DNA of 47,071 nt from Candidatus Omnitrophota bacterium (GTDB taxonomy: Bacteria > Omnitrophota > 4484-213). This document shows, piece by piece, positions 27,157-33,039 of this stretch (its first letter is position 1; each line of letters begins with the position of its first letter). The position numbers were made by a program, and so were the translations under genes. The stretch is from contig JAGGUG010000126.1 of NCBI GenBank assembly GCA_021158625.1, forward strand, positions 1-47,071. Reading direction: 5' to 3'. The notes under the pieces were generated by a model, which did no database searches, was not told the origin of the DNA, and worked only from the letters and a program-made list of their open reading frames with translations.

Positions 27157-28116
27157 CTAACTTACTTTTGTTCTCCCCAGGATTGTGTTCTCGCTTATCC
27201 TATGGCCGATAATAAATTCCTTACTGCTCATCCTTCTTCTTCCCTCTATTTGCAGTTCCTCTATCCAGAGTCCATTCCTTCCGGTAGAAACCAAAATTCC
27301 TTTATCTCTATCAATCTTTAATATTTCTCCAAAGAAAGAAGAGGCAAATTTTTTAGGAGCTACCCTTGTCTTCCAGAGTTTTATCCTTTTTCCCCGCCAG
27401 AAGGTAAACGCTCCTGGTTCGGGGGTAAACCCGCGAATTAGATTATGGATCTGAGACGCCGGTTTTGACCAATCAATTTCCCCGTCGCTCTTATTTAATT
27501 TGGGAAAATAGGTGGCTTCTTTCTCATTCTGGGCAGCGAGCACTACCTTTTTATGTCTGATTAATTCTATTGTTTCAAGCAAAGCCAATGCTCCTTCTTC
27601 TGCCAGACGCCGACCTAACTGGCCAGCGTTCTCTCCCTCCCTTATCTCTATCTCTTTCTGATAAATTATCTCCCCGGCGTCTATCCTCTCGCCAATCTTA
27701 ATTACTGAAATCCCTGTCTTTTTCTCTCCATTGATTAAAACCCAGTTAATCGGGGCCGGGCCGCGATATCTGGGCAGTAAGGAAGGATGGAGATTTATGG
27801 AGTAAATTTTGGGGATGCTCAGAATTTCTTTAGTTAACTTTCGGCCGTAATTTACTACTATAAATAATTCCGGTTCATCTTTCTTTAAGGTATCTATAAA
27901 ATCCGACAAGAAATTCTCGGGTTGATAGATGGAGAACCTTTGCCGTTGAGAAAATTCCTTTATCGGGTCAATACCTATTTTCAACCCTCTTCCCTTTCTT
28001 TTATCTGGTGAAGCCACCACTCCTAAAATCTGGTATCTGGAGGCAAGTTTTTTGAGAGAAACTAAAGCAAATTCTCCATTTCCCCAAAATATTATCTTCA
28101 TTTTATAAAAAGGCAT
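27157..28116 (-). CDS. fmt: Methionyl-tRNA formyltransferase
   Basis: 319 aa. HPSLLPRYRGPAPINW and a C-terminal Fmt domain are present. An alternative start lies at 28101 (MKIIFWG). Confidence 0.92.
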   Translation of the reverse strand: MPFYKMKIIFWGNGEFALVSLKKLASRYQILGVVASPDKRKGRGLKIGIDPIKEFSQRQRFSIYQPENFLSDFIDTLKKDEPELFIVVNYGRKLTKEILSIPKIYSINLHPSLLPRYRGPAPINWVLINGEKKTGISVIKIGERIDAGEIIYQKEIEIREGENAGQLGRRLAEEGALALLETIELIRHKKVVLAAQNEKEATYFPKLNKSDGEIDWSKPASQIHNLIRGFTPEPGAFTFWRGKRIKLWKTRVAPKKFASSFFGEILKIDRDKGILVSTGRNGLWIEELQIEGRRRMSSKEFIIGHRISENTILGRTKVS

Positions 28117-28118
28117 TC

Positions 28119-28151
28119 AATCGCTGTAATCGAATTTTAATCGCTGTAATC
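28119..28151 (+). repeat. Family D: two 13-mers with a 20-nt period (opposite orientation)
   Basis: AATCGCTGTAATC-N7-AATCGCTGTAATC, lying between priA and fmt. Confidence 0.7.
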
Positions 28152-28175: not shown

Positions 28176-29795
28176 CTAAAAGAAAAACAAAGGGTCAACA
28201 TCTACTATTATCCTTTTATCCACTCTCCTTCGCTGAAACTCGGCTAATACTTTTCTCAGAGATTGATTTGTTTTGAGGACATTTTCTGTCCTCAAGGTAA
28301 TATACCAGGAATTTAAAAAATTGGCTGGTCCTAAAATCTTCTCTTTGCCAAATTCCCTTCTTAAATCCTCTGATAACTCCGTCATTCTTTTCTTTAATCT
28401 CTGTTCGTCTTTACCCTTTAAAATTATATTAATAAAATGTACAAAAGGGGGATAGTTTAGCTGGCGGCGATAGGTTATTTCCTGTGTGTAAAAATCCTCG
28501 TAATCTTCGCTGATAGCCGCAGTGATGCTGAAGTGAGTAGGGTTATAGGTTTGAATAATGAGTTCTGCTTTTGCCTGCTGGGCTTCCCTGACTATTTGAG
28601 AAAGTAGCTCGAAGGTACGCTCACTTGCCAGGAAATTAGGAGAATTAAGGATACTATCGGCGGAGATAACTCCTATTAAGCCCACCTGGGGAAAACTCTC
28701 GCCCTGCACTTTCCTCTGTCTGCCTAATCTCTCATAGATAATAACTCTTTTCTTCTTGGCCAGACATTCATCTATCTTTGTTTTCAAAAAAGGAGAAAGA
28801 GAAAACCTCTCTTTGTTTCTATCTATTATCCTTATATTGGGAGAGATATTATCGCCCCTTGTCTTTAACTTTAAAAGTTGATATCTCCCCGAAATGGCTT
28901 TATGATAGGATTCCAGGCAAGGGATAACGCTGCCTAAGACTACTATTGCTTTTTCTATCTTCGCTCTCTTGATTGCCACATTGCGGGCATTATAGCGAGG
29001 GATACTCTCTTCTTTGTAAGAGTTATCCTGCTCTTCATCGACAATAATCAGCCCCAAGTCTTTCAAAGGCGAAAAGACTGCTGACCTCGTGCCGATGACA
29101 ATCCGGGCATCTCCCTTCTTTATCCTCTGCCACTCCTGAAATTGCTGGCGAGAAGAAAGTTGAGAGTGGTACTCAGCAATTATCTCTCCAAAATGAGAGA
29201 TAAATCTTGCAATTATCTGAGGGGCTAAGGAGATCTCAGGAACTAATATAATTACCCCTTTATTTTGACTGAGAATGCCCTCAATTATGTGCAGATAAAT
29301 CTTTATTCTTTCCTCGCTTTGTCCATACACCAGAAAAGTCCGTGGCTGGCTCTCCTTCATTGCCTTGATAATCTTATCTACGCCTGAAGGCGGTTCAGGT
29401 TTCAAATCTAAATTTTCTTTCTCCTTCACCCACCTGGAGGGCGGAGGTGCAAGCGAGGTCGGTCTTGTCTTTTGCGCTCCCCTTCGCAAGGCTGGGGGCA
29501 GAGTTATCGCCAGTGCCTCCCCCCAGGAGCAAAAGTAGTATTCCGAAAGCCATTTAACCAGAGATAACAAAGGAGAGGTAATAATCGGCTGGCTATCGAT
29601 TACCTTTTTAATCTCTTTAACCTTCTTTAACTTCGATTCCTTGACTAATCCAACTATATAACCAACTGTCTTTTTCTTTCTAAATTCTACCCAGACCCTT
29701 TTGCCGATTTCAGCTTCTTCTCTTAGATGGTCGGGAACGGCGTAATCAAAAACTTTATCTACCGGAAGGTTTAAGACAATTTGGGCGTAGTTCAT
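28176..29795 (-). CDS. PriA-like primosomal protein with degenerate helicase motifs and no Cys-rich zinc region
   Basis: 539 aa. It is colinear with my recollection of E. coli PriA (LVPEISLAPQ, VIGTRSAVFSPL, IIVDEEQD, ASERTFELLSQ, YPPF). However, Walker A reads YGQSEERIK, SATP reads SVIP, and GRAGR reads REAQQ. About 120 aa, including the CxxC motifs, are absent. Confidence 0.75.
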   Translation of the reverse strand: MNYAQIVLNLPVDKVFDYAVPDHLREEAEIGKRVWVEFRKKKTVGYIVGLVKESKLKKVKEIKKVIDSQPIITSPLLSLVKWLSEYYFCSWGEALAITLPPALRRGAQKTRPTSLAPPPSRWVKEKENLDLKPEPPSGVDKIIKAMKESQPRTFLVYGQSEERIKIYLHIIEGILSQNKGVIILVPEISLAPQIIARFISHFGEIIAEYHSQLSSRQQFQEWQRIKKGDARIVIGTRSAVFSPLKDLGLIIVDEEQDNSYKEESIPRYNARNVAIKRAKIEKAIVVLGSVIPCLESYHKAISGRYQLLKLKTRGDNISPNIRIIDRNKERFSLSPFLKTKIDECLAKKKRVIIYERLGRQRKVQGESFPQVGLIGVISADSILNSPNFLASERTFELLSQIVREAQQAKAELIIQTYNPTHFSITAAISEDYEDFYTQEITYRRQLNYPPFVHFINIILKGKDEQRLKKRMTELSEDLRREFGKEKILGPANFLNSWYITLRTENVLKTNQSLRKVLAEFQRRRVDKRIIVDVDPLFFF

Positions 29796-29800
29796 AACCA

Positions 29801-29868
29801 GCCTGCCGGCTACAAGCTACAGGCTTCAGGTTTTTTAAGCGCGGGCTTGAGGCTTGTTGCTTGCAACC
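29801..29868. repeat. Family C low-complexity hairpin
   Basis: caggcttcagg (29820-29830) pairs with cttgaggcttg (29846-29856) through 8 Watson-Crick pairs and 3 G:T pairs on the plus strand. Confidence 0.7.
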
Positions 29869-30575
29869 AAAGAAAGTTCCTTCTTTATCTTCTTCATATC
29901 CTCCCAAACTGGAATCTTCCCTTGAGGGTTGCGCAGGAGATAGGCGGGATGAAATGTAGGAATCAGTTTTACCCTGTTAAATAATTTCGTTGAAGGCGAA
30001 ATTCCGCCGCCTAAGGCGAGGGAATTAACAGGGTGAATCCCTTCATAATCATAAAATTTTCCTCTTAATTGTGAGATGGGAGAAACCACACCAAGCAGGG
30101 TTTGAGCGGCAAATTTCCCCAATGCACAAATTATCTGCGGACGGATTATCCTTATTTGCTCTTTTAAATAAGGAAGGCAATTTTCAATCTCCTGAGGCAG
30201 AGGATTGCGGTTTCCCGGCGGTCGGCACTTTAGGATATTGGTAATATAGACATCTTCTCTCTTTAGACCTATGGACTGGATGATTCGGGTAAGGAGTTGT
30301 CCGGCTTTACCCACAAATGGTTTTCCTTGCCTATCTTCCTCCTCTCCGGGCGCCTCTCCGACAAATAATAGAGAGGCCTCGTTATTTCCCTCGCCAAATA
30401 CATAATGTGTTTTAGTTCTGGCAAGTGGGCACTTTGTACATTGGTGTACTCTTTGAGAAAGAAGCTCGAGCTCTTGAGAAGGAGAAATAGAAGGAGAAAA
30501 GAACTCCTCTATGCCGGCGAGCCTCTCTCCCTCTAAAAAGGTTTTGAGAGAGTCAATTATCTCTTTGTCTTTCAT
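29835..30575 (-). CDS. Uracil-DNA glycosylase, family 4, carrying an in-frame repeat insertion
   Basis: 246 aa. CTKCPL, GEAPGEEED, FVGKAGQLL and PTFHPAYLLRNP are present. The C-terminal tail (SNKPQARA) is read from a family C repeat. Confidence 0.88.
   Translation of the reverse strand: MKDKEIIDSLKTFLEGERLAGIEEFFSPSISPSQELELLSQRVHQCTKCPLARTKTHYVFGEGNNEASLLFVGEAPGEEEDRQGKPFVGKAGQLLTRIIQSIGLKREDVYITNILKCRPPGNRNPLPQEIENCLPYLKEQIRIIRPQIICALGKFAAQTLLGVVSPISQLRGKFYDYEGIHPVNSLALGGGISPSTKLFNRVKLIPTFHPAYLLRNPQGKIPVWEDMKKIKKELSLVASNKPQARA
29971..30034. repeat. Family A element inside the UDG CDS (in frame)
   Basis: ACCCTGTTAA ... TTAACAGGGT, encoding HPVNSLALGGGISPSTKLFNRV. Confidence 0.8.
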
Positions 30576-31128
30576 TATTCTTATGCTTTAAGATAATCCC
30601 ACTTGCTTCCCATAAATCCTGAGCAAAATAATCCGGCTGGATATCCCATTTTTTAGCATCTTCTAACTTTGTCCTTCCCGAACCTACCAAAATAGTCTTG
30701 CAACCTATTCTTTTGCCTGCTTCTACATCTATAGAACCATCACCGACAAAATAGGTGCTTTTAAAATCAACTTCTTTCCCTTGAGTGGCTTTCAAAAACA
30801 AACCAATCTTGGGTTTGCGACAGTCACAGCCATCTTCTTCGCGATGCGGGCAATAATAGACCTCCATCCTTCCCCCTTCTCTTTTTACCTCTTCAATCAT
30901 TCGTCGGGTAATCTCGTTTAGGGACTCCTGACTATAAATTCCCTTAGCTATTCCCGATTGATTAGAGATAACCTTAATTTCGTAGCCCTCTTCAGTCAAT
31001 CTGCGGATCGCTTTTAAAGCATTGGGCAGAAAATGAAATTCCTCCCATCGAGTAACAAATTTTTTCTCGCCGGGATATCTATTAATCACTCCATCGCGGT
31101 CTAAAAAGACTACTTTTTTGTTCTTCAT
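30553..31128 (-). CDS. gmhB: D,D-heptose 1,7-bisphosphate phosphatase (HAD-IIIA)
   Basis: The start was moved to the ATG at 31128 (MKNKKVVFLDRDGVIN). The zinc motif CPHREEDGCDCRKP is present. The track N-terminal extension overlaps tRNA-Arg. Confidence 0.85.
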   Translation of the reverse strand: MKNKKVVFLDRDGVINRYPGEKKFVTRWEEFHFLPNALKAIRRLTEEGYEIKVISNQSGIAKGIYSQESLNEITRRMIEEVKREGGRMEVYYCPHREEDGCDCRKPKIGLFLKATQGKEVDFKSTYFVGDGSIDVEAGKRIGCKTILVGSGRTKLEDAKKWDIQPDYFAQDLWEASGIILKHKNNERQRDN

Positions 31129-31181
31129 TCTTTGGGATTTGGAAATTGGGATTTCCGAATTTCGCCAAAGGCGAAATTCGC

Positions 31182-31257
31182 TGGTGCCCCTAACCTGATT
31201 TGAACAGGTACTTCTGGCTCCGGAGGCCAGCGCTCTATCCAATTAGGCTATAGGGGC
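31182..31257 (-). tRNA. tRNA-Arg (CCG)
   Basis: A 76-nt cloverleaf was folded by hand: GCCCCTA-TA-GCCT-AATTGGATA-GAGC-G-CTGGC-CTCCGGA-GCCAG-AAGT-ACCTG-TTCAAAT-CAGGT-TAGGGGC-A-CCA. The D-stem has one mismatch and one G:U pair. Confidence 0.85.
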
Positions 31258-31262
31258 AGATA

Positions 31263-31392
31263 AGCTTCAAGCTGCAGGCTTTCAGGTCGCAGGCTACAGG
31301 TTTTAAGTTTTCTGTTTTTGACCTGCAGCTTGGAGCTTGAGACTTGAGGCTTATTAGCTTGCAGCTTGCGGTTTGTAGCCTGTAACCTGTAG
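31263..31392. repeat. Family C long hairpin
   Basis: aagcttcaagctgcaggctttcaggtcgcaggctacagg ... cctgcagcttggagcttgagacttgaggctt ... It lies between a promoter-like site and tRNA-Arg. Confidence 0.7.
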
Positions 31393-31397
31393 TATTT

Positions 31398-31426
31398 ATA
31401 TTATCTCAATTAGAGAAAAAAGTCAA
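31398..31426 (-). promoter_or_regulatory. Sigma70-like promoter upstream of tRNA-Arg
   Basis: Minus strand TTGACT-17 nt-TAATAT. Confidence 0.55.
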
Positions 31427-31511
31427 ACAGAAACAAAAAAGGACAGATTATCTGCCCTTTTATAATACCAAACTCAATGCAAAATCGGGTAACCCCTTCG
31501 AAATTGGTTTG

Positions 31512-31597
31512 CCCCGTTAGATAACTTTATTGAGAATAACATTACTCCAGCAAGGTGTCAATGTATCTATTTTAGAATAGAAGTTGTCTAACAGGGG
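31512..31597. repeat. Family A element
   Basis: CCCCGTTAG-N68-CTAACAGGGG, ending 5 nt from the LigD-PE stop. Confidence 0.7.
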
Positions 31598-31602
31598 AAT
31601 CA

Positions 31603-32097
31603 TCAACTATCCGATTGAAAATCCGATACCTTAAAGAACAACCAGTTCTTATCCTCGCTTAATTTGGGCCTTAATTTTAGCAAGCAATAATTGCCTTTCA
31701 ATCTATCTCCCTTTAATTCAAAGATTATTTTTTGAGGAGCCCACTCTTGCAAAGCATAACTCCCTTTATCCCAAATCTCCACTTTGCCGGCACCGTATAA
31801 TCCCTGAGGAATCTCTCCGGCAAAATCTGCGTAATCTAATGGATGGTCTTCTACCTGAATTGCCAGACGTTTAATATTAAACTCTGTGGGTGGCTGCTTA
31901 GGAATAGCCCAACTCTTCAGAACCCCATCTTTTTCCAAACGAAAGTCATAATGCAAGTGAGTTGCCTCGTGCCTTTGGATAACAAATATTGGTTCTTTTC
32001 CTCGTTTGAATTTTCTGGTTGCTCGTGGCTCAGGTGATTTGCTAAAATCGCGTTTCTTAAAATACTCGGTTAACTTTTCCATCAGAGAGAATTTCAT
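31603..32097 (-). CDS. Stand-alone LigD-type 3'-phosphoesterase domain protein
   Basis: 164 aa. FVIQRHEATHLHYDFRLE, VLKSWAIPK, EDHPLDYADFAGEIP and YGAGKVEIWDKG match the LigD PE domain. Confidence 0.8.
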   Translation of the reverse strand: MKFSLMEKLTEYFKKRDFSKSPEPRATRKFKRGKEPIFVIQRHEATHLHYDFRLEKDGVLKSWAIPKQPPTEFNIKRLAIQVEDHPLDYADFAGEIPQGLYGAGKVEIWDKGSYALQEWAPQKIIFELKGDRLKGNYCLLKLRPKLSEDKNWLFFKVSDFQSDS

Positions 32098-32638
32098 TTA
32101 GGGCATCTATCCCTTTTTTCTCAAGGTCCTGGACAAACCTCTGAAAAATCCTCTGCGTTGTCCGCACATCGCCCATTGCCCGATGTTCTTGTTCATAGTC
32201 AATCTCAATACCTAAAGAGCGGGCAATGCTTCCCAGGCTATTACTCCAGAAGTCAAAATAGCGGCGAGCAAGAGATAGCGTATCTACTATCGGGCAGGAA
32301 GGAAAGGGTAGATTAAGGGTGTTAAGTTCAGCCTTCAGAAACCCCATATCAAAGAAAGCATTATGACAAACAATAACTGTTCCTTCTAACCTCTTTAATA
32401 TATCCTTGGCAACCTCGCTGAATCTGGGTTTGCCCCTTAGCATCTGGGGGGTTATTCTGTTTACGGCATAAGCCCCTTCTGAGATCGGACGTCCGGGGTT
32501 AATAAGGGTATGAAAAGAAGAAACATCCTTACCATTACGGCTTTTTAGGATAGCAACTTCACAAATTTTGTCTCCATTATAGTGTTCCAGCCCGGTTGTC
32601 TCCACATCAAAAAAAGCAAAAGTAATATCCTTTATCAT
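32057..32638 (-). CDS. DEDDh 3'-5' exonuclease (DnaQ/epsilon-like)
   Basis: 193 aa. ExoI FFDVETTGL, ExoII HNAFFDMGFL and ExoIII HRAMGDV are present. Confidence 0.85.
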   Translation of the reverse strand: MIKDITFAFFDVETTGLEHYNGDKICEVAILKSRNGKDVSSFHTLINPGRPISEGAYAVNRITPQMLRGKPRFSEVAKDILKRLEGTVIVCHNAFFDMGFLKAELNTLNLPFPSCPIVDTLSLARRYFDFWSNSLGSIARSLGIEIDYEQEHRAMGDVRTTQRIFQRFVQDLEKKGIDALNEILSDGKVNRVF

Positions 32639-32682
32639 TTTGTTTTTTTATCAGTTCTCTACTGCCTACTGTTTTCTACTCT

Positions 32683-33039
32683 TTATCCCGGGGGCCAGCT
32701 TAGCTTTCTTCCCCCTAATAGATGAAGGTGAATATGAAAAACCGCTTGGCCGGCATCCTTGTTGTTGTTTAACACCAAACGATAGCCACTCTCGGCTATT
32801 CCTTTTTCTTCGGCGAGTTTTTTAGCAATAAAGATAAGTTCGGAGATGATATCTTTATCCGATTCTTCTAAATCGGAAATTCGAGAAATGTGTTTTTTAG
32901 GAATGATAAGGATATGCACCGGCGCTTGGGGGTTAATGTCCTTAAAAGCCAAAACCTTCTCGTTTTCATAGAGAATATCAGCAGGAATCTGCTTTGCTAT
33001 TATTCTGCAGAAAAGGCAATTCATTGTTTCCTCGCTCAT
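32683..33039 (-). CDS. HIT-family (HinT-like) nucleotide hydrolase
   Basis: 118 aa with the histidine triad HIHLHLLGG. Confidence 0.88.
   Translation of the reverse strand: MSEETMNCLFCRIIAKQIPADILYENEKVLAFKDINPQAPVHILIIPKKHISRISDLEESDKDIISELIFIAKKLAEEKGIAESGYRLVLNNNKDAGQAVFHIHLHLLGGRKLSWPPG

What the first reader, a model, noticed from the sequence alone, without database searches (positions are those of the whole stretch)
28176..29795. Intact PriA-like ORF with helicase motifs erased and the zinc-finger region deleted
The ORF is colinear with PriA across many blocks: N-terminal DNA-binding region, LVPEISLAPQ, VIGTRSAVFSPL, LGLIIVDEE, RYNARNVA, ASERTFELLSQ and YPPF. The catalytic motifs, however, are degenerate.
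- Walker A GxxGSGKT reads YGQSEERIK (29301-29327).
- DEEH reads DEEQ.
- GSATP reads GSVIP.
- QxxGRAGR reads QIVREAQQ.
Around 28686-28733 the sequence jumps from the NRRG-equivalent (ERLGRQ) straight to the FP.V.L block. This removes roughly 120 aa, including all the CxxC zinc-binding motifs and much of helicase lobe 2. The comparison is to my recollection of the E. coli PriA sequence. The frame is nevertheless open for 539 codons, in a conserved fmt-adjacent position. This suggests either a retained non-enzymatic (scaffold or DNA-binding) PriA or a very recent pseudogene.
Basis: partly seen in the sequence, partly recalled or inferred. Interest (0 to 1): 0.65.

Follow-up and report, generated by a model that had tools for sequence, protein, structure and literature searches.

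The report
Motor-less, zinc-finger-less PriA kept by selection
An uncultivated Omnitrophota bacterium from hydrothermal sediment carries, in the normal priA position, a shortened replication-restart protein that has lost its ATP motor motifs and its whole zinc-binding region but is still preserved by natural selection, so it probably acts as a passive fork-binding adaptor.

Summary
ORF 28176-29795 (-) encodes a 539-aa PriA homologue. It keeps the 3'-end-binding domain, the core of helicase lobe 1, the aromatic-rich loop and the C-terminal domain. Walker A now reads QSEERIK, and motifs Ia, III, V and VI are degenerate. A single 110-aa deletion after residue 356 removes NRRG, all eight zinc cysteines and about half of helicase lobe 2.

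It is not a pseudogene. Seven relatives (52-94% identical, at least three Omnitrophota MAG species) share the same deletion and motif losses. They form one clade. Pairwise dN/dS is 0.13-0.25, with every bootstrap value below 1, close to the neighbouring housekeeping genes.

The gene sits in the same UDG-priA-fmt slot as canonical Omnitrophota priA, so it is the positional orthologue.

An ATPase-dead PriA "pseudohelicase" is already known from Deinococcus-Thermus. Natural loss of the cysteine-rich region was not found in the literature I searched. I also found a probably independent zinc-finger-less clade next to NPL-UPA2-type PriA, and about 15 further ATPase-motif-dead PriAs that keep the zinc region.

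DEEQ is not evidence of degeneracy, because many otherwise canonical PriAs have it.

The parts
28176..29795 (-). Complete ORF (539 aa plus stop) encoding the shortened PriA homologue.
29496..29783 (-). 3'-DNA-end-binding domain, residues 5-100. F16-D17-Y18 are invariant in the clade.
   Evidence: Pfam PF17764, E 2.4e-29. Invariant columns. D17 is the residue that binds the 3' end in E. coli PriA (PMC5175346).
29346..29495 (-). Linker in place of the winged-helix domain, residues 101-150. It is poorly conserved and modelled with low confidence.
   Evidence: dN/dS 0.4-1.5; pLDDT 49-69. Canonical Omnitrophota PriAs have about the same length here.
28806..29345 (-). Helicase lobe 1 (RecA-like fold), residues about 151-330. 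The fold is kept without the catalytic residues.
   Evidence: Partial Pfam DEAD hit at 169-261; dN/dS 0.10-0.14; AF2 model and Foldseek.
29301..29327 (-). Relic of Walker A (motif I). It reads YGQSEERIK where canonical proteins read HGITASGKTE. The replacement E-E-R-I-K-I-Y is itself conserved in the clade, and the loop is one residue shorter.
29028..29039 (-). Motif II, DEEQ (residues 253-256). The acidic residues are kept and His is replaced by Gln. This variant also occurs in otherwise canonical PriAs.
28983..29018 (-). Aromatic-rich loop, residues 260-271 (YKEESIPRYNAR). K261, R267, Y268 and R271 are kept. These correspond by my own alignment mapping to E. coli K328, R334, Y335 and R338.
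   Evidence: Loop function from PMC5175346.
28920..28934 (-). Relic of motif III. It reads GSVIP where canonical proteins read GSATP, and the A-T positions vary within the clade.
28725..28730 (-). Deletion junction, codons 356|357 (..YER|LGRQ..). Canonical relatives carry 110 aa here: RRG of motif IV, the eight-Cys zinc region, and two alpha/beta units of lobe 2.
   Evidence: alignments
28536..28805 (-). Remnant of helicase lobe 2, residues about 331-420. The model shows four strands and two helices. Motif V (GTQM..KG) has become LGRQRKVQG.
28575..28598 (-). Relic of motif VI. It reads QIVREAQQ where canonical proteins read QVAGRAGR. Both arginines are lost and the positions vary within the clade.
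28191..28448 (-). PriA C-terminal domain, residues 450-535.
   Evidence: Pfam PF18074, 35 bits against a cut-off of 26.9; dN/dS 0.10-0.20.
28179..28190 (-). Clade-specific C-terminal tail L-F-F-F. F537-F539 are invariant in all eight members; L536 is Met in one member. Canonical relatives lack this tail.
27157..28116 (-). Downstream neighbour fmt (methionyl-tRNA formyltransferase). It forms one side of the conserved slot.
29835..30575 (-). Upstream neighbour, a family-4 uracil-DNA glycosylase. It forms the other side of the conserved slot.

Best explanation
The ORF is the orthologue of priA in a small clade of marine-sediment and hydrothermal Omnitrophota. It has become a catalytically inert, structurally reduced PriA.

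Shown:
- It descends from canonical Omnitrophota PriA and sits in the same UDG-priA-fmt slot.
- On one ancestral branch it lost the residues that bind and hydrolyse ATP (motifs I, III, V, VI) and the ssDNA-tracking motif Ia.
- On that branch it also lost 110 aa that hold motif IV, the zinc-binding cysteine-rich region and half of helicase lobe 2.
- Since then it has been kept under purifying selection in every remaining domain.

Inferred mechanism: the protein can no longer translocate, unwind DNA, form the CRR-framed ssDNA pore, or dock a PriB-like partner on the CRR. What it retains is the structure-specific recognition part of PriA:
- the 3'-end pocket of the 3'BD (F16/D17/Y18);
- the fork-junction aromatic-rich loop on lobe 1;
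- the C-terminal domain, all held on a rigid PriA-shaped body.

It therefore most likely works as a passive fork or D-loop recognition adaptor. It would mark abandoned forks and recruit the replicative helicase, directly or through SSB or the loader. This is the role proposed for the Deinococcus radiodurans PriA pseudohelicase, and it matches the ATPase-independent role of E. coli PriA K230R.
For: Homology and fold:
- TIGR00595 scores 314.7 bits, and PF17764 and PF18074 score above their cut-offs.
- The AF2 model has pLDDT 90.4 and pTM 0.91, and its best Foldseek hits are PriA structures 6dcr, 8fak and 4nl4 with TM about 0.85.

Loss of catalytic parts:
- Of 185 columns that are at least 90% conserved in 113 canonical Omnitrophota PriAs, 98 are kept, 31 are deleted, 24 are replaced by a different conserved residue and 32 have become variable.
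- The changed columns are concentrated in motifs I, Ia, III, IV, V and VI.
- There are no CxxC pairs, and Pfam reports no Zn_ribbon_PriA hit and only a sub-threshold Helicase_C hit.

Selection:
- Eight members at 52-94% identity share the same architecture.
- dN/dS is 0.13-0.25, with a bootstrap 95% CI of 0.14-0.40 for the closest pair. Neighbouring fmt, ychF, leuA, aroE and udg give 0.06-0.19.

Orthology:
- The clade is monophyletic (SH-aLRT 100) on the longest internal branch, and is nested with Omnitrophota PriAs.
- PNK3P-UDG-priA-fmt synteny is shared with canonical relatives.

Retained recognition parts: F16, D17, Y18, K261, R267 and Y268 are invariant.

Precedent:
- D. radiodurans PriA lacks ATPase and helicase activity but binds forks and DnaB (PMC4504706).
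- E. coli priA300 (K230R) cells behave almost like wild type (PMC5778457).

Recurrence: other lineages have ATPase-motif-dead PriAs, and a second CRR-less clade exists.
Against: - No experiment and no expression data exist; no RNA run was found.
If it does, this copy need not carry the restart function.
- In E. coli the CRR is needed for PriB docking, for the ssDNA pore and for DnaB loading in vitro (PMC10175261). How a CRR-less PriA would hand over to DnaB is therefore unknown.
- The confident structure model relies on canonical homologues in the alignment. With the eight clade members alone AF2 gives pLDDT 50.
- Partner proteins (DnaB, loader, SSB) were not examined.
Confidence: 0.68

Rival explanations
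1. It is a sub- or neo-functionalised copy that coexists with an intact priA elsewhere in the genome. That second copy could be a duplicate or a horizontally acquired one. The short protein would then be an accessory, regulator or competitor at forks, not the restart initiator.
For: Whole-genome absence of a second priA was not tested. A long stem branch and wholesale motif loss are what one expects after release from the ancestral function.
Against: - It occupies the ancestral UDG-priA-fmt slot in all members for which flanking DNA was recovered on both sides.
- No second priA lies in the 47-kb window or in the 21.7 kb read around the gene on the relative's 87.8-kb contig.
- priA is the one restart gene conserved across bacterial phyla (PMC5778457). 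That it is normally single-copy is my own knowledge, not tested here.
- Independent lineages show similar losses, each in its own ancestral priA locus.
Confidence: 0.15
2. It is a repair accessory unrelated to replisome reloading. It would be a 3'-end or branched-DNA binding protein working with the adjacent end-processing and base-excision genes: UDG, PNK3P-type phosphatase, LigD 3'-phosphoesterase, DnaQ-like exonuclease and HIT.
For: These genes lie immediately upstream on the same strand. The retained domains are DNA-end and junction binders.
Against: The same PNK3P-UDG-priA-fmt neighbourhood surrounds fully canonical priA in related Omnitrophota. The neighbourhood therefore does not distinguish the short form.
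Confidence: 0.1
3. It is still an ATPase or translocase that uses a non-canonical nucleotide site.
For: The Walker B acidic residues D253, E254 and E255 are largely retained. An Arg sits at the Walker lysine position. The replacement loop EERIKIY is conserved.
Against: - The glycine-rich P-loop, the motif III Thr, motif V and both motif VI arginines are gone, and half of lobe 2 is deleted.
- K to R alone abolishes ATPase in E. coli PriA (PMC4504706; PMC5778457).
Confidence: 0.03
4. It is a recent pseudogene or an assembly artefact that happens to stay open.
For: Loss of all catalytic motifs and a large internal deletion.
Against: - Eight intact orthologues exist down to 52% identity, with dS up to saturation and dN/dS of 0.25 or less.
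- Four independent run assemblies carry the identical frame.
Confidence: 0.02

Closest known systems
Deinococcus-Thermus PriA pseudohelicase (D. radiodurans DR2606; Lopper et al. 2015, PMC4504706)
   Same: It is a natural PriA orthologue with degenerate Walker A and B motifs, including Arg at the Walker lysine position. It has no ATPase or helicase activity but binds forks and DnaB. It is presumed to remain the restart initiator.
   Different: - The Deinococcus paper reports changes in motifs I and II only and no loss of the cysteine-rich region. I did not inspect that sequence myself.
- Here motifs I, Ia, III, IV, V and VI are all gone, and 110 aa (CRR plus half of lobe 2) are deleted.
- It is a different phylum and an independent origin.
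- Nothing has been tested biochemically here.
Canonical PriA (E. coli / K. pneumoniae; PDB 4nl4, 6dcr, 8fak; TIGR00595)
   Same: It has the same domain order, apart from the winged-helix domain: 3'BD, linker, lobe 1, lobe 2, CTD. The 3'-end pocket, aromatic-rich loop and CTD are present. The TIGR00595 score is above cut-off. Foldseek TM is about 0.85.
   Different: - It has no P-loop, no motif VI arginines, no zinc-binding CRR and only half of lobe 2.
- It therefore lacks the beta-hairpin wedge, the CRR-framed ssDNA pore and the PriB docking surface described in PMC10175261.
- There is no winged-helix domain, which is also true of canonical Omnitrophota PriAs.
E. coli PriA K230R/K230A (priA300) laboratory variants
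   Same: They are ATPase-dead PriAs that still assemble primosomes and support PriA-PriB restart in vivo and in vitro (PMC5778457; PMC10175261).
   Different: They are engineered point mutants with an intact CRR and lobe 2. The CRR-PriB contact is required for DnaB loading in that system.
Second CRR-less PriA clade found here (P0196, P0347-P0350; labelled Firmicutes/Bacillota MAG; sister to NPL-UPA2-type PriA)
   Same: These are short proteins of 562-598 aa with no zinc cysteines. Three of the five members have a Walker A replaced by an (E/Q)ER-L-K-like sequence, and motifs II-His and VI are lost. The clade is conserved across 59-67% identity.
   Different: - Only the ~59-aa CRR is excised, and the rest of lobe 2 is kept.
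- The locus differs (priA followed by a convergent TPR gene), as in its own canonical relatives.
- The ML tree places it apart from the window's clade, although the AU test does not reject a common origin (p = 0.37).

Membership tests
PriA / primosomal protein N' (homology family, TIGR00595 / PF17764 + PF18074) | Significant full-length sequence similarity above curated cut-offs | tested here: met
   TIGR00595 scores 314.7 bits against a cut-off of 230.35. PF17764 scores 101.5 against 22.7. PF18074 scores 35 against 26.9. The stricter PRK05580 equivalog models are not reached (419 against 813).
PriA / primosomal protein N' (homology family) | N-terminal 3'-DNA-end-binding domain with its pocket residues | tested here: met
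   PF17764 covers 5-100 over the full profile. F16, D17 and Y18 are invariant.
PriA / primosomal protein N' (homology family) | Overall PriA fold | tested here: met
   The AF2 model has pLDDT 90.4. The top Foldseek hits are all PriA chains, with E of 1e-35 to 1e-40 and TMq of 0.77-0.85. Caveat: the model depends on canonical homologues in the alignment.
PriA as an SF2 DNA helicase (functional class) | Walker A P-loop GxxGSGKT | tested here: not met
   It reads YG-QSEERIK. The clade consensus is x-E-E-R-I-K, one residue shorter.
PriA as an SF2 DNA helicase (functional class) | Motif II DExH/DEEx acidic residues | tested here: met
   D253, E254 and E255 are retained. The fourth residue is Q, which also occurs in otherwise canonical PriAs.
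PriA as an SF2 DNA helicase (functional class) | Motifs III (GSATP), V (GTQM..KG) and VI (QxxGRAGR arginine fingers) | tested here: not met
   They read GSVIP, LGRQRKVQG and QIVREAQQ. These positions vary within the clade.
PriA as an SF2 DNA helicase (functional class) | Complete second RecA-like lobe including motif IV (NRRG) | tested here: not met
   The 110-aa deletion after residue 356 removes RRG and two alpha/beta units. Pfam Helicase_C gives only a sub-threshold hit, and it falls elsewhere in the protein.
PriA as an SF2 DNA helicase (functional class) | Cysteine-rich region binding two Zn (four CxxC pairs; PF18319) | tested here: not met
   No PF18319 hit. There are 3 Cys in total and no CxxC pair. 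All 113 canonical relatives have 7-8 Cys here.
PriA as an SF2 DNA helicase (functional class) | DNA-dependent ATPase and 3'-5' helicase activity | not testable with these tools
   Requires purified protein.
PriA pseudohelicase (sensu Lopper 2015) | Clear descent from PriA with loss of catalytic residues, while the gene is maintained | tested here: met
   Phylogeny, motif loss, dN/dS 0.13-0.25.
PriA pseudohelicase (sensu Lopper 2015) | Retained fork binding and interaction with DnaB | not testable with these tools
   Only conservation of the 3'BD pocket and the aromatic-rich loop could be shown.
Sole priA of the genome (orthologue, not paralogue) | Ancestral genomic position | tested here: met
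   The UDG-priA-fmt slot is shared with canonical Omnitrophota priA.
Sole priA of the genome (orthologue, not paralogue) | No second priA in the genome | not tested
Only the 47-kb window and 21.7 kb of a relative's contig were seen, and neither holds another priA.

The most novel reading that the evidence does not exclude
This is the only PriA of these bacteria. It would be a natural "minimal PriA" that restarts replication with no ATPase, no zinc-binding region and half of a helicase lobe. The core, irreducible function of PriA would then be structure-specific fork recognition by 3'BD + lobe 1 + CTD, followed by direct recruitment of the replicative helicase. The conserved replacement residues (E161/E162/R163/K165 in the old P-loop, new R326/R350/E355 at the lobe interface, and the C-terminal FFF tail) would lock the protein permanently in one conformation, taking the place of the ATP- and CRR-driven switch. 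The same endpoint has been reached at least twice: in the Omnitrophota clade and in the NPL-UPA2-like clade.
Probability: 0.4. Interest if true: 0.75.

Novelty: new variant of a known kind. Interest (0 to 1): 0.6.

Why it matters
PriA is the one replication-restart protein found in all bacterial phyla. Current structural models from E. coli put the cysteine-rich region at the centre of its mechanism, as the unwinding wedge, the ssDNA pore and the PriB docking switch. The 2017 review I read lists Deinococcus as the only exception to conservation of helicase activity.

A clade that keeps PriA under purifying selection after losing the motor motifs and the whole zinc region shows which parts are dispensable in nature. 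It also provides a ready-made minimal construct of 539 aa. With it, one can ask what PriA does in the many bacteria that lack PriB and DnaT, a question the review names as open.

The side result widens the "pseudohelicase" phenomenon well beyond Deinococcus-Thermus. ATPase-motif-dead PriAs are scattered through uncultivated lineages, and a second clade has lost the CRR, probably independently.

Tried and rejected
- The single genome-contig scan, run with the window protein, returned only three clade members and one canonical Campylobacter PriA. It did not return the window's own assembly. It gave names but no second-copy test.
- Earlier notes of this scan for the same genome contained nothing on another priA or on replication genes.
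- RNA evidence: no RNA run holds the gene.
- AF2 with only the eight clade sequences gave an unusable model, pLDDT 50. The good model therefore cannot be called independent of the canonical homologues.
- dN/dS for a canonical Omnitrophota pair as a yardstick: synonymous sites were saturated. I compared amino-acid identities instead. Canonical priA is 63% identical against fmt 57% and udg 66%. The short priA is 64-78% against fmt 66-81% and udg 77-84%. This points to slightly relaxed constraint only.
- P0196 as an evolutionary intermediate of the window's clade: rejected as the best reading. The ML tree and synteny place it with NPL-UPA2-type PriAs, although the AU test cannot exclude common origin.
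- DEEQ as a sign of decay: rejected.
- A literature search for PriA in Omnitrophota found nothing relevant. I ran no literature search aimed specifically at natural CRR-less PriAs.
Full report
**What is there**

The minus-strand ORF 28176..29795 is open for 539 codons. It is tightly packed between a family-4 uracil-DNA glycosylase gene (29835..30575) and fmt (27157..28116). All three lie on the same strand, in a 47-kb stretch of housekeeping genes that includes alaS, trpS/tyrS, glyA, dnaE, cysS, leuA and aroE.

The protein is unmistakably a PriA homologue:
- NCBIfam TIGR00595 (replication restart helicase PriA) scores 314.7 bits against a curated cut-off of 230.35.
- Pfam finds the PriA 3'-DNA-binding domain at residues 5-100 (E 2e-29) and the PriA C-terminal domain at 450-535.
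- Every solved PriA structure matches, with E between 1e-66 and 5e-69.

Equally clearly, Pfam finds no Zn_ribbon_PriA hit, only a sub-threshold Helicase_C hit that lies in lobe 1, and only a partial DEAD hit. The stricter PRK05580 equivalog models reach only half of their cut-offs. The alignments to E. coli and K. pneumoniae PriA break at query residue 354 and resume about 100 target residues later.

All quoted blocks and coordinates are right.

The closest canonical relatives are Omnitrophota PriAs of about 662 aa. Against these the main gap is exactly 110 aa, after residue 356 (DNA junction 28727|28728). It removes the RRG of motif IV, the whole eight-cysteine region and about 50-55 aa of helicase lobe 2. 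Smaller gaps of 1 aa (in the P-loop), 6, 2 and 7 aa make up most of the rest of the length difference. The protein has three cysteines and no CxxC pair.

I compared the clade with the 185 alignment columns that are at least 90% conserved in 113 canonical Omnitrophota PriAs:

| Fate in the clade | Columns |
|---|---|
| Kept | 98 |
| Deleted | 31 |
| Replaced by a different conserved residue | 24 |
| Now variable | 32 |

The changed columns are concentrated in these motifs:

| Motif | Canonical | In this clade |
|---|---|---|
| I (Walker A) | G-x-T-x-S-G-K-T-E | x-x-E-E-R-I-K |
| Ia | TPQ | variable |
| III | AT | variable |
| IV | present | deleted |
| V | T-Q-M..K | variable |
| VI | G-R-x-G-R | variable |

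DEEQ, DEEF and DEEY occur in many representative PriAs that have a perfect GSGKT, GRAGR and eight cysteines.

**Not a pseudogene and not an artefact**

A search of 5.8 billion proteins found seven relatives of 517-552 aa at 94, 78, 76, 66, 61, 58 and 53% identity. After them the scores drop sharply to canonical PriAs of about 662 aa at 43% identity. All eight sequences share the same 110-aa gap, the same one-residue-shorter EER(I)K loop and the same degenerate motifs. They also share clade-specific invariant features such as the C-terminal F-F-F.

They form one clade (SH-aLRT 100) on the longest internal branch of the tree. This remains true when the trait columns are removed, and the clade then groups with the Omnitrophota PriAs. 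In a library of 1.84 billion 50%-identity representatives, the whole clade collapses into one representative at 952 bits. The next hit scores 493 bits, and apart from P0196 the other listed hits are full-length PriAs (645-965 aa).

Pairwise Nei-Gojobori dN/dS for the five members whose DNA I fetched is 0.13-0.25. For the closest pair (94% identity, dS 0.11) it is 0.245, with a bootstrap 95% interval of 0.14-0.40. No replicate reached 1 in any of the four pairs tested. The neighbouring fmt, ychF, leuA, aroE and udg genes give 0.06-0.19 for the same genome pairs.

By region:
- The 3'BD, lobe 1, the lobe-2 remnant and the CTD are all constrained in most pairs (mostly about 0.06-0.3). In the closest pair the lobe-2 remnant estimate is 0.96, from very few substitutions.
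- Only the 101-150 linker is relaxed (0.4-1.5).

Contigs of four separate hydrothermal-vent metagenome runs carry the ORF without any indel. They show one synonymous SNP.

**Orthology**

In the five short-form loci with enough flank on both sides, the order is PNK3P-type phosphatase, UDG, short priA, fmt, ychF. The other loci have less flank; the most divergent member, P0007, has different genes upstream.

Canonical priA of related Omnitrophota (P0008, P0036) lies in the same PNK3P...UDG-priA-(one gene)-fmt position. The short gene is therefore the positional orthologue of canonical priA. It is not an extra copy placed somewhere else.

Genomes that hold it include Candidatus Omnitrophica bacterium 4484_213 (MZGK01) and two cold-seep-type MAGs, CSMAG_2090 and CSMAG_2044.

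This is the main open point.

**Structure**

With the 121-sequence alignment, AlphaFold2 gives a confident compact model (pLDDT 90.4, pTM 0.91). Only the 111-140 linker is uncertain.

The lobe-2 remnant is modelled as four strands and two helices. The motif-IV strand (RVIIYER) joins the former motif-V strand by a tight turn.

Foldseek places the model on the PriA structures: 6dcr (the E. coli winged-helix-deletion protein), 8fak, 4nl4 and 6dgd. TM is 0.83-0.85 normalised to the query. Mfd, RecQ and RecG follow far behind.

With only the eight clade sequences the model is poor (pLDDT 50). The good model therefore shows that the sequence is compatible with a PriA body lacking the CRR. It is not independent evidence for the details.

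**What has been lost and kept, in the light of the literature**

In E. coli the CRR has three roles:
- It carries the beta-hairpin wedge needed for unwinding.
- It pivots to form, together with lobe 2 and the CTD, a pore around the lagging-strand ssDNA.
- It exposes the PriB docking surface. CRR variants that cannot bind PriB fail to load DnaB in vitro (PMC10175261; PMC13594977).

None of this is possible for the protein here.

Kept are:
- F16-D17-Y18 of the 3'-end pocket (D17 is the 3'-end contact; PMC5175346).
- K261, R267 and Y268, which correspond to E. coli ARL residues K328, R334 and Y335. That loop crosslinks to the fork junction.
- The CTD.

Helicase activity is dispensable for much of PriA's function. 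The E. coli K230R mutant is nearly wild type and supports PriA-PriB restart (PMC5778457). D. radiodurans PriA is a natural pseudohelicase that still binds forks and DnaB (PMC4504706).

The most likely mechanism is therefore a passive, structure-specific fork or D-loop adaptor that recruits the replicative helicase. That the residues are retained is shown. The activity itself is inferred.

**Wider pattern found on the way**

Among the 150 best representatives matching the clade's profile, about 15 have lost motifs I and VI while keeping eight CRR cysteines: P0105, P0123, P0125-P0127, P0133, P0137, P0149, P0152, P0156, P0172, P0204, P0216, P0234 and P0243. Five more are partly degenerate. They are scattered over the tree, which needs at least four changes. 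P0105 and P0123 sit inside the Omnitrophota PriA group, next to intact relatives.

A second CRR-less clade also exists: P0196 and P0347-P0350, of 562-598 aa and 59-67% identical to one another. One member is labelled as a Firmicutes/Bacillota MAG.
- Only the ~59-aa CRR has been excised, and the rest of lobe 2 is kept.
- In three of the five members Walker A reads R-(E/Q)-E-R-L-K or E-E-R-L-K.
- The clade is sister (SH-aLRT 97) to intact NPL-UPA2-type PriAs.
- It shares with them a different locus, priA followed by a convergent TPR gene.

Independent origin is therefore the better reading. An AU test does not reject a single origin (p = 0.37).

The profile used for this search favours degenerate sequences, so these counts are not frequencies.

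**Novelty**

A PriA pseudohelicase is known. The review I read (PMC5778457) treats Deinococcus as the exception to conserved helicase activity. None of the PriA papers I read describes a natural PriA without the CRR, and searches for PriA in Omnitrophota found nothing relevant.

I therefore class this as a new variant of a known kind. It is the most reduced PriA seen here, kept by selection, in the ancestral locus.

An earlier first-stage note from another genome of this scan described the same protein type. That is a repeat observation, not independent support.

**Confidence**
- That the ORF is a selected, ATPase-motif-less, CRR-less orthologue of priA: about 0.9.
- That it acts as a restart adaptor: about 0.6-0.7.
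- That it is the only priA of the genome: untested.

Noticed in passing
window 28119-28151 (between the priA stop and the fmt start): Two copies of the 13-mer GATTACAGCGATT (minus-strand reading) lie 20 nt apart in the 59-nt priA-fmt spacer. It could be an operator or a small repeat family.
   Followed up: no
proteins P0105, P0123, P0125, P0126, P0127, P0133, P0137, P0149, P0152, P0156, P0172, P0204, P0216, P0234, P0243: These are full-length PriA representatives from uncultivated lineages. They keep all eight CRR cysteines but have lost Walker A and the motif VI arginines. They are polyphyletic, so PriA pseudohelicases appear far more widespread than Deinococcus-Thermus.
   Followed up: partly
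proteins P0196, P0347-P0350; loci L018:1720-3516, L019:1694-3490: This is a second clade of CRR-less, ATPase-motif-dead PriA (562-598 aa). It excises only the zinc region and keeps lobe 2. It is sister to NPL-UPA2-type PriA and shares that group's priA-TPR synteny.
   Followed up: partly
representative PriAs, e.g. P0155, P0164, P0170, P0182-P0185, P0195: Motif II reads DEEQ, DEEF or DEEY instead of DEEH in many PriAs whose other motifs and CRR are intact. The fourth residue of motif II is therefore not a reliable marker of activity in this family.
   Followed up: yes
window 29835-33039: A same-strand cluster of DNA end-processing and repair genes lies upstream of priA: HIT hydrolase, DnaQ-like RNase_T exonuclease, LigD 3'-phosphoesterase domain, PNK3P/HAD phosphatase and family-4 UDG. 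The PNK3P-UDG-priA linkage is also present around canonical Omnitrophota priA.
   Followed up: partly
L004:237-2336, L007:839-2920, L008:775-2838: A gene of about 690 aa with no Pfam hit sits just upstream of the PNK3P gene in several relatives (after LigD_N in L007 and L008). It is absent from the corresponding 360-nt gap of the window (31243-31602).
   Followed up: no
L001:7098-8036 and L001:8911-9792 versus window 32057-33039 and 29835-31242: In the 94%-identical relative the gene caller reports a fused HIT+RNase_T protein (312 aa) and a fused PNK3P+UDG protein (293 aa). The window has separate or overlapping ORFs at these places. This could reflect frameshift differences or gene-calling differences.
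   Followed up: no
window 1-47071: Every ORF of 110 aa or more with a recognisable product lies on the minus strand. GC skew is negative throughout.
   Followed up: no
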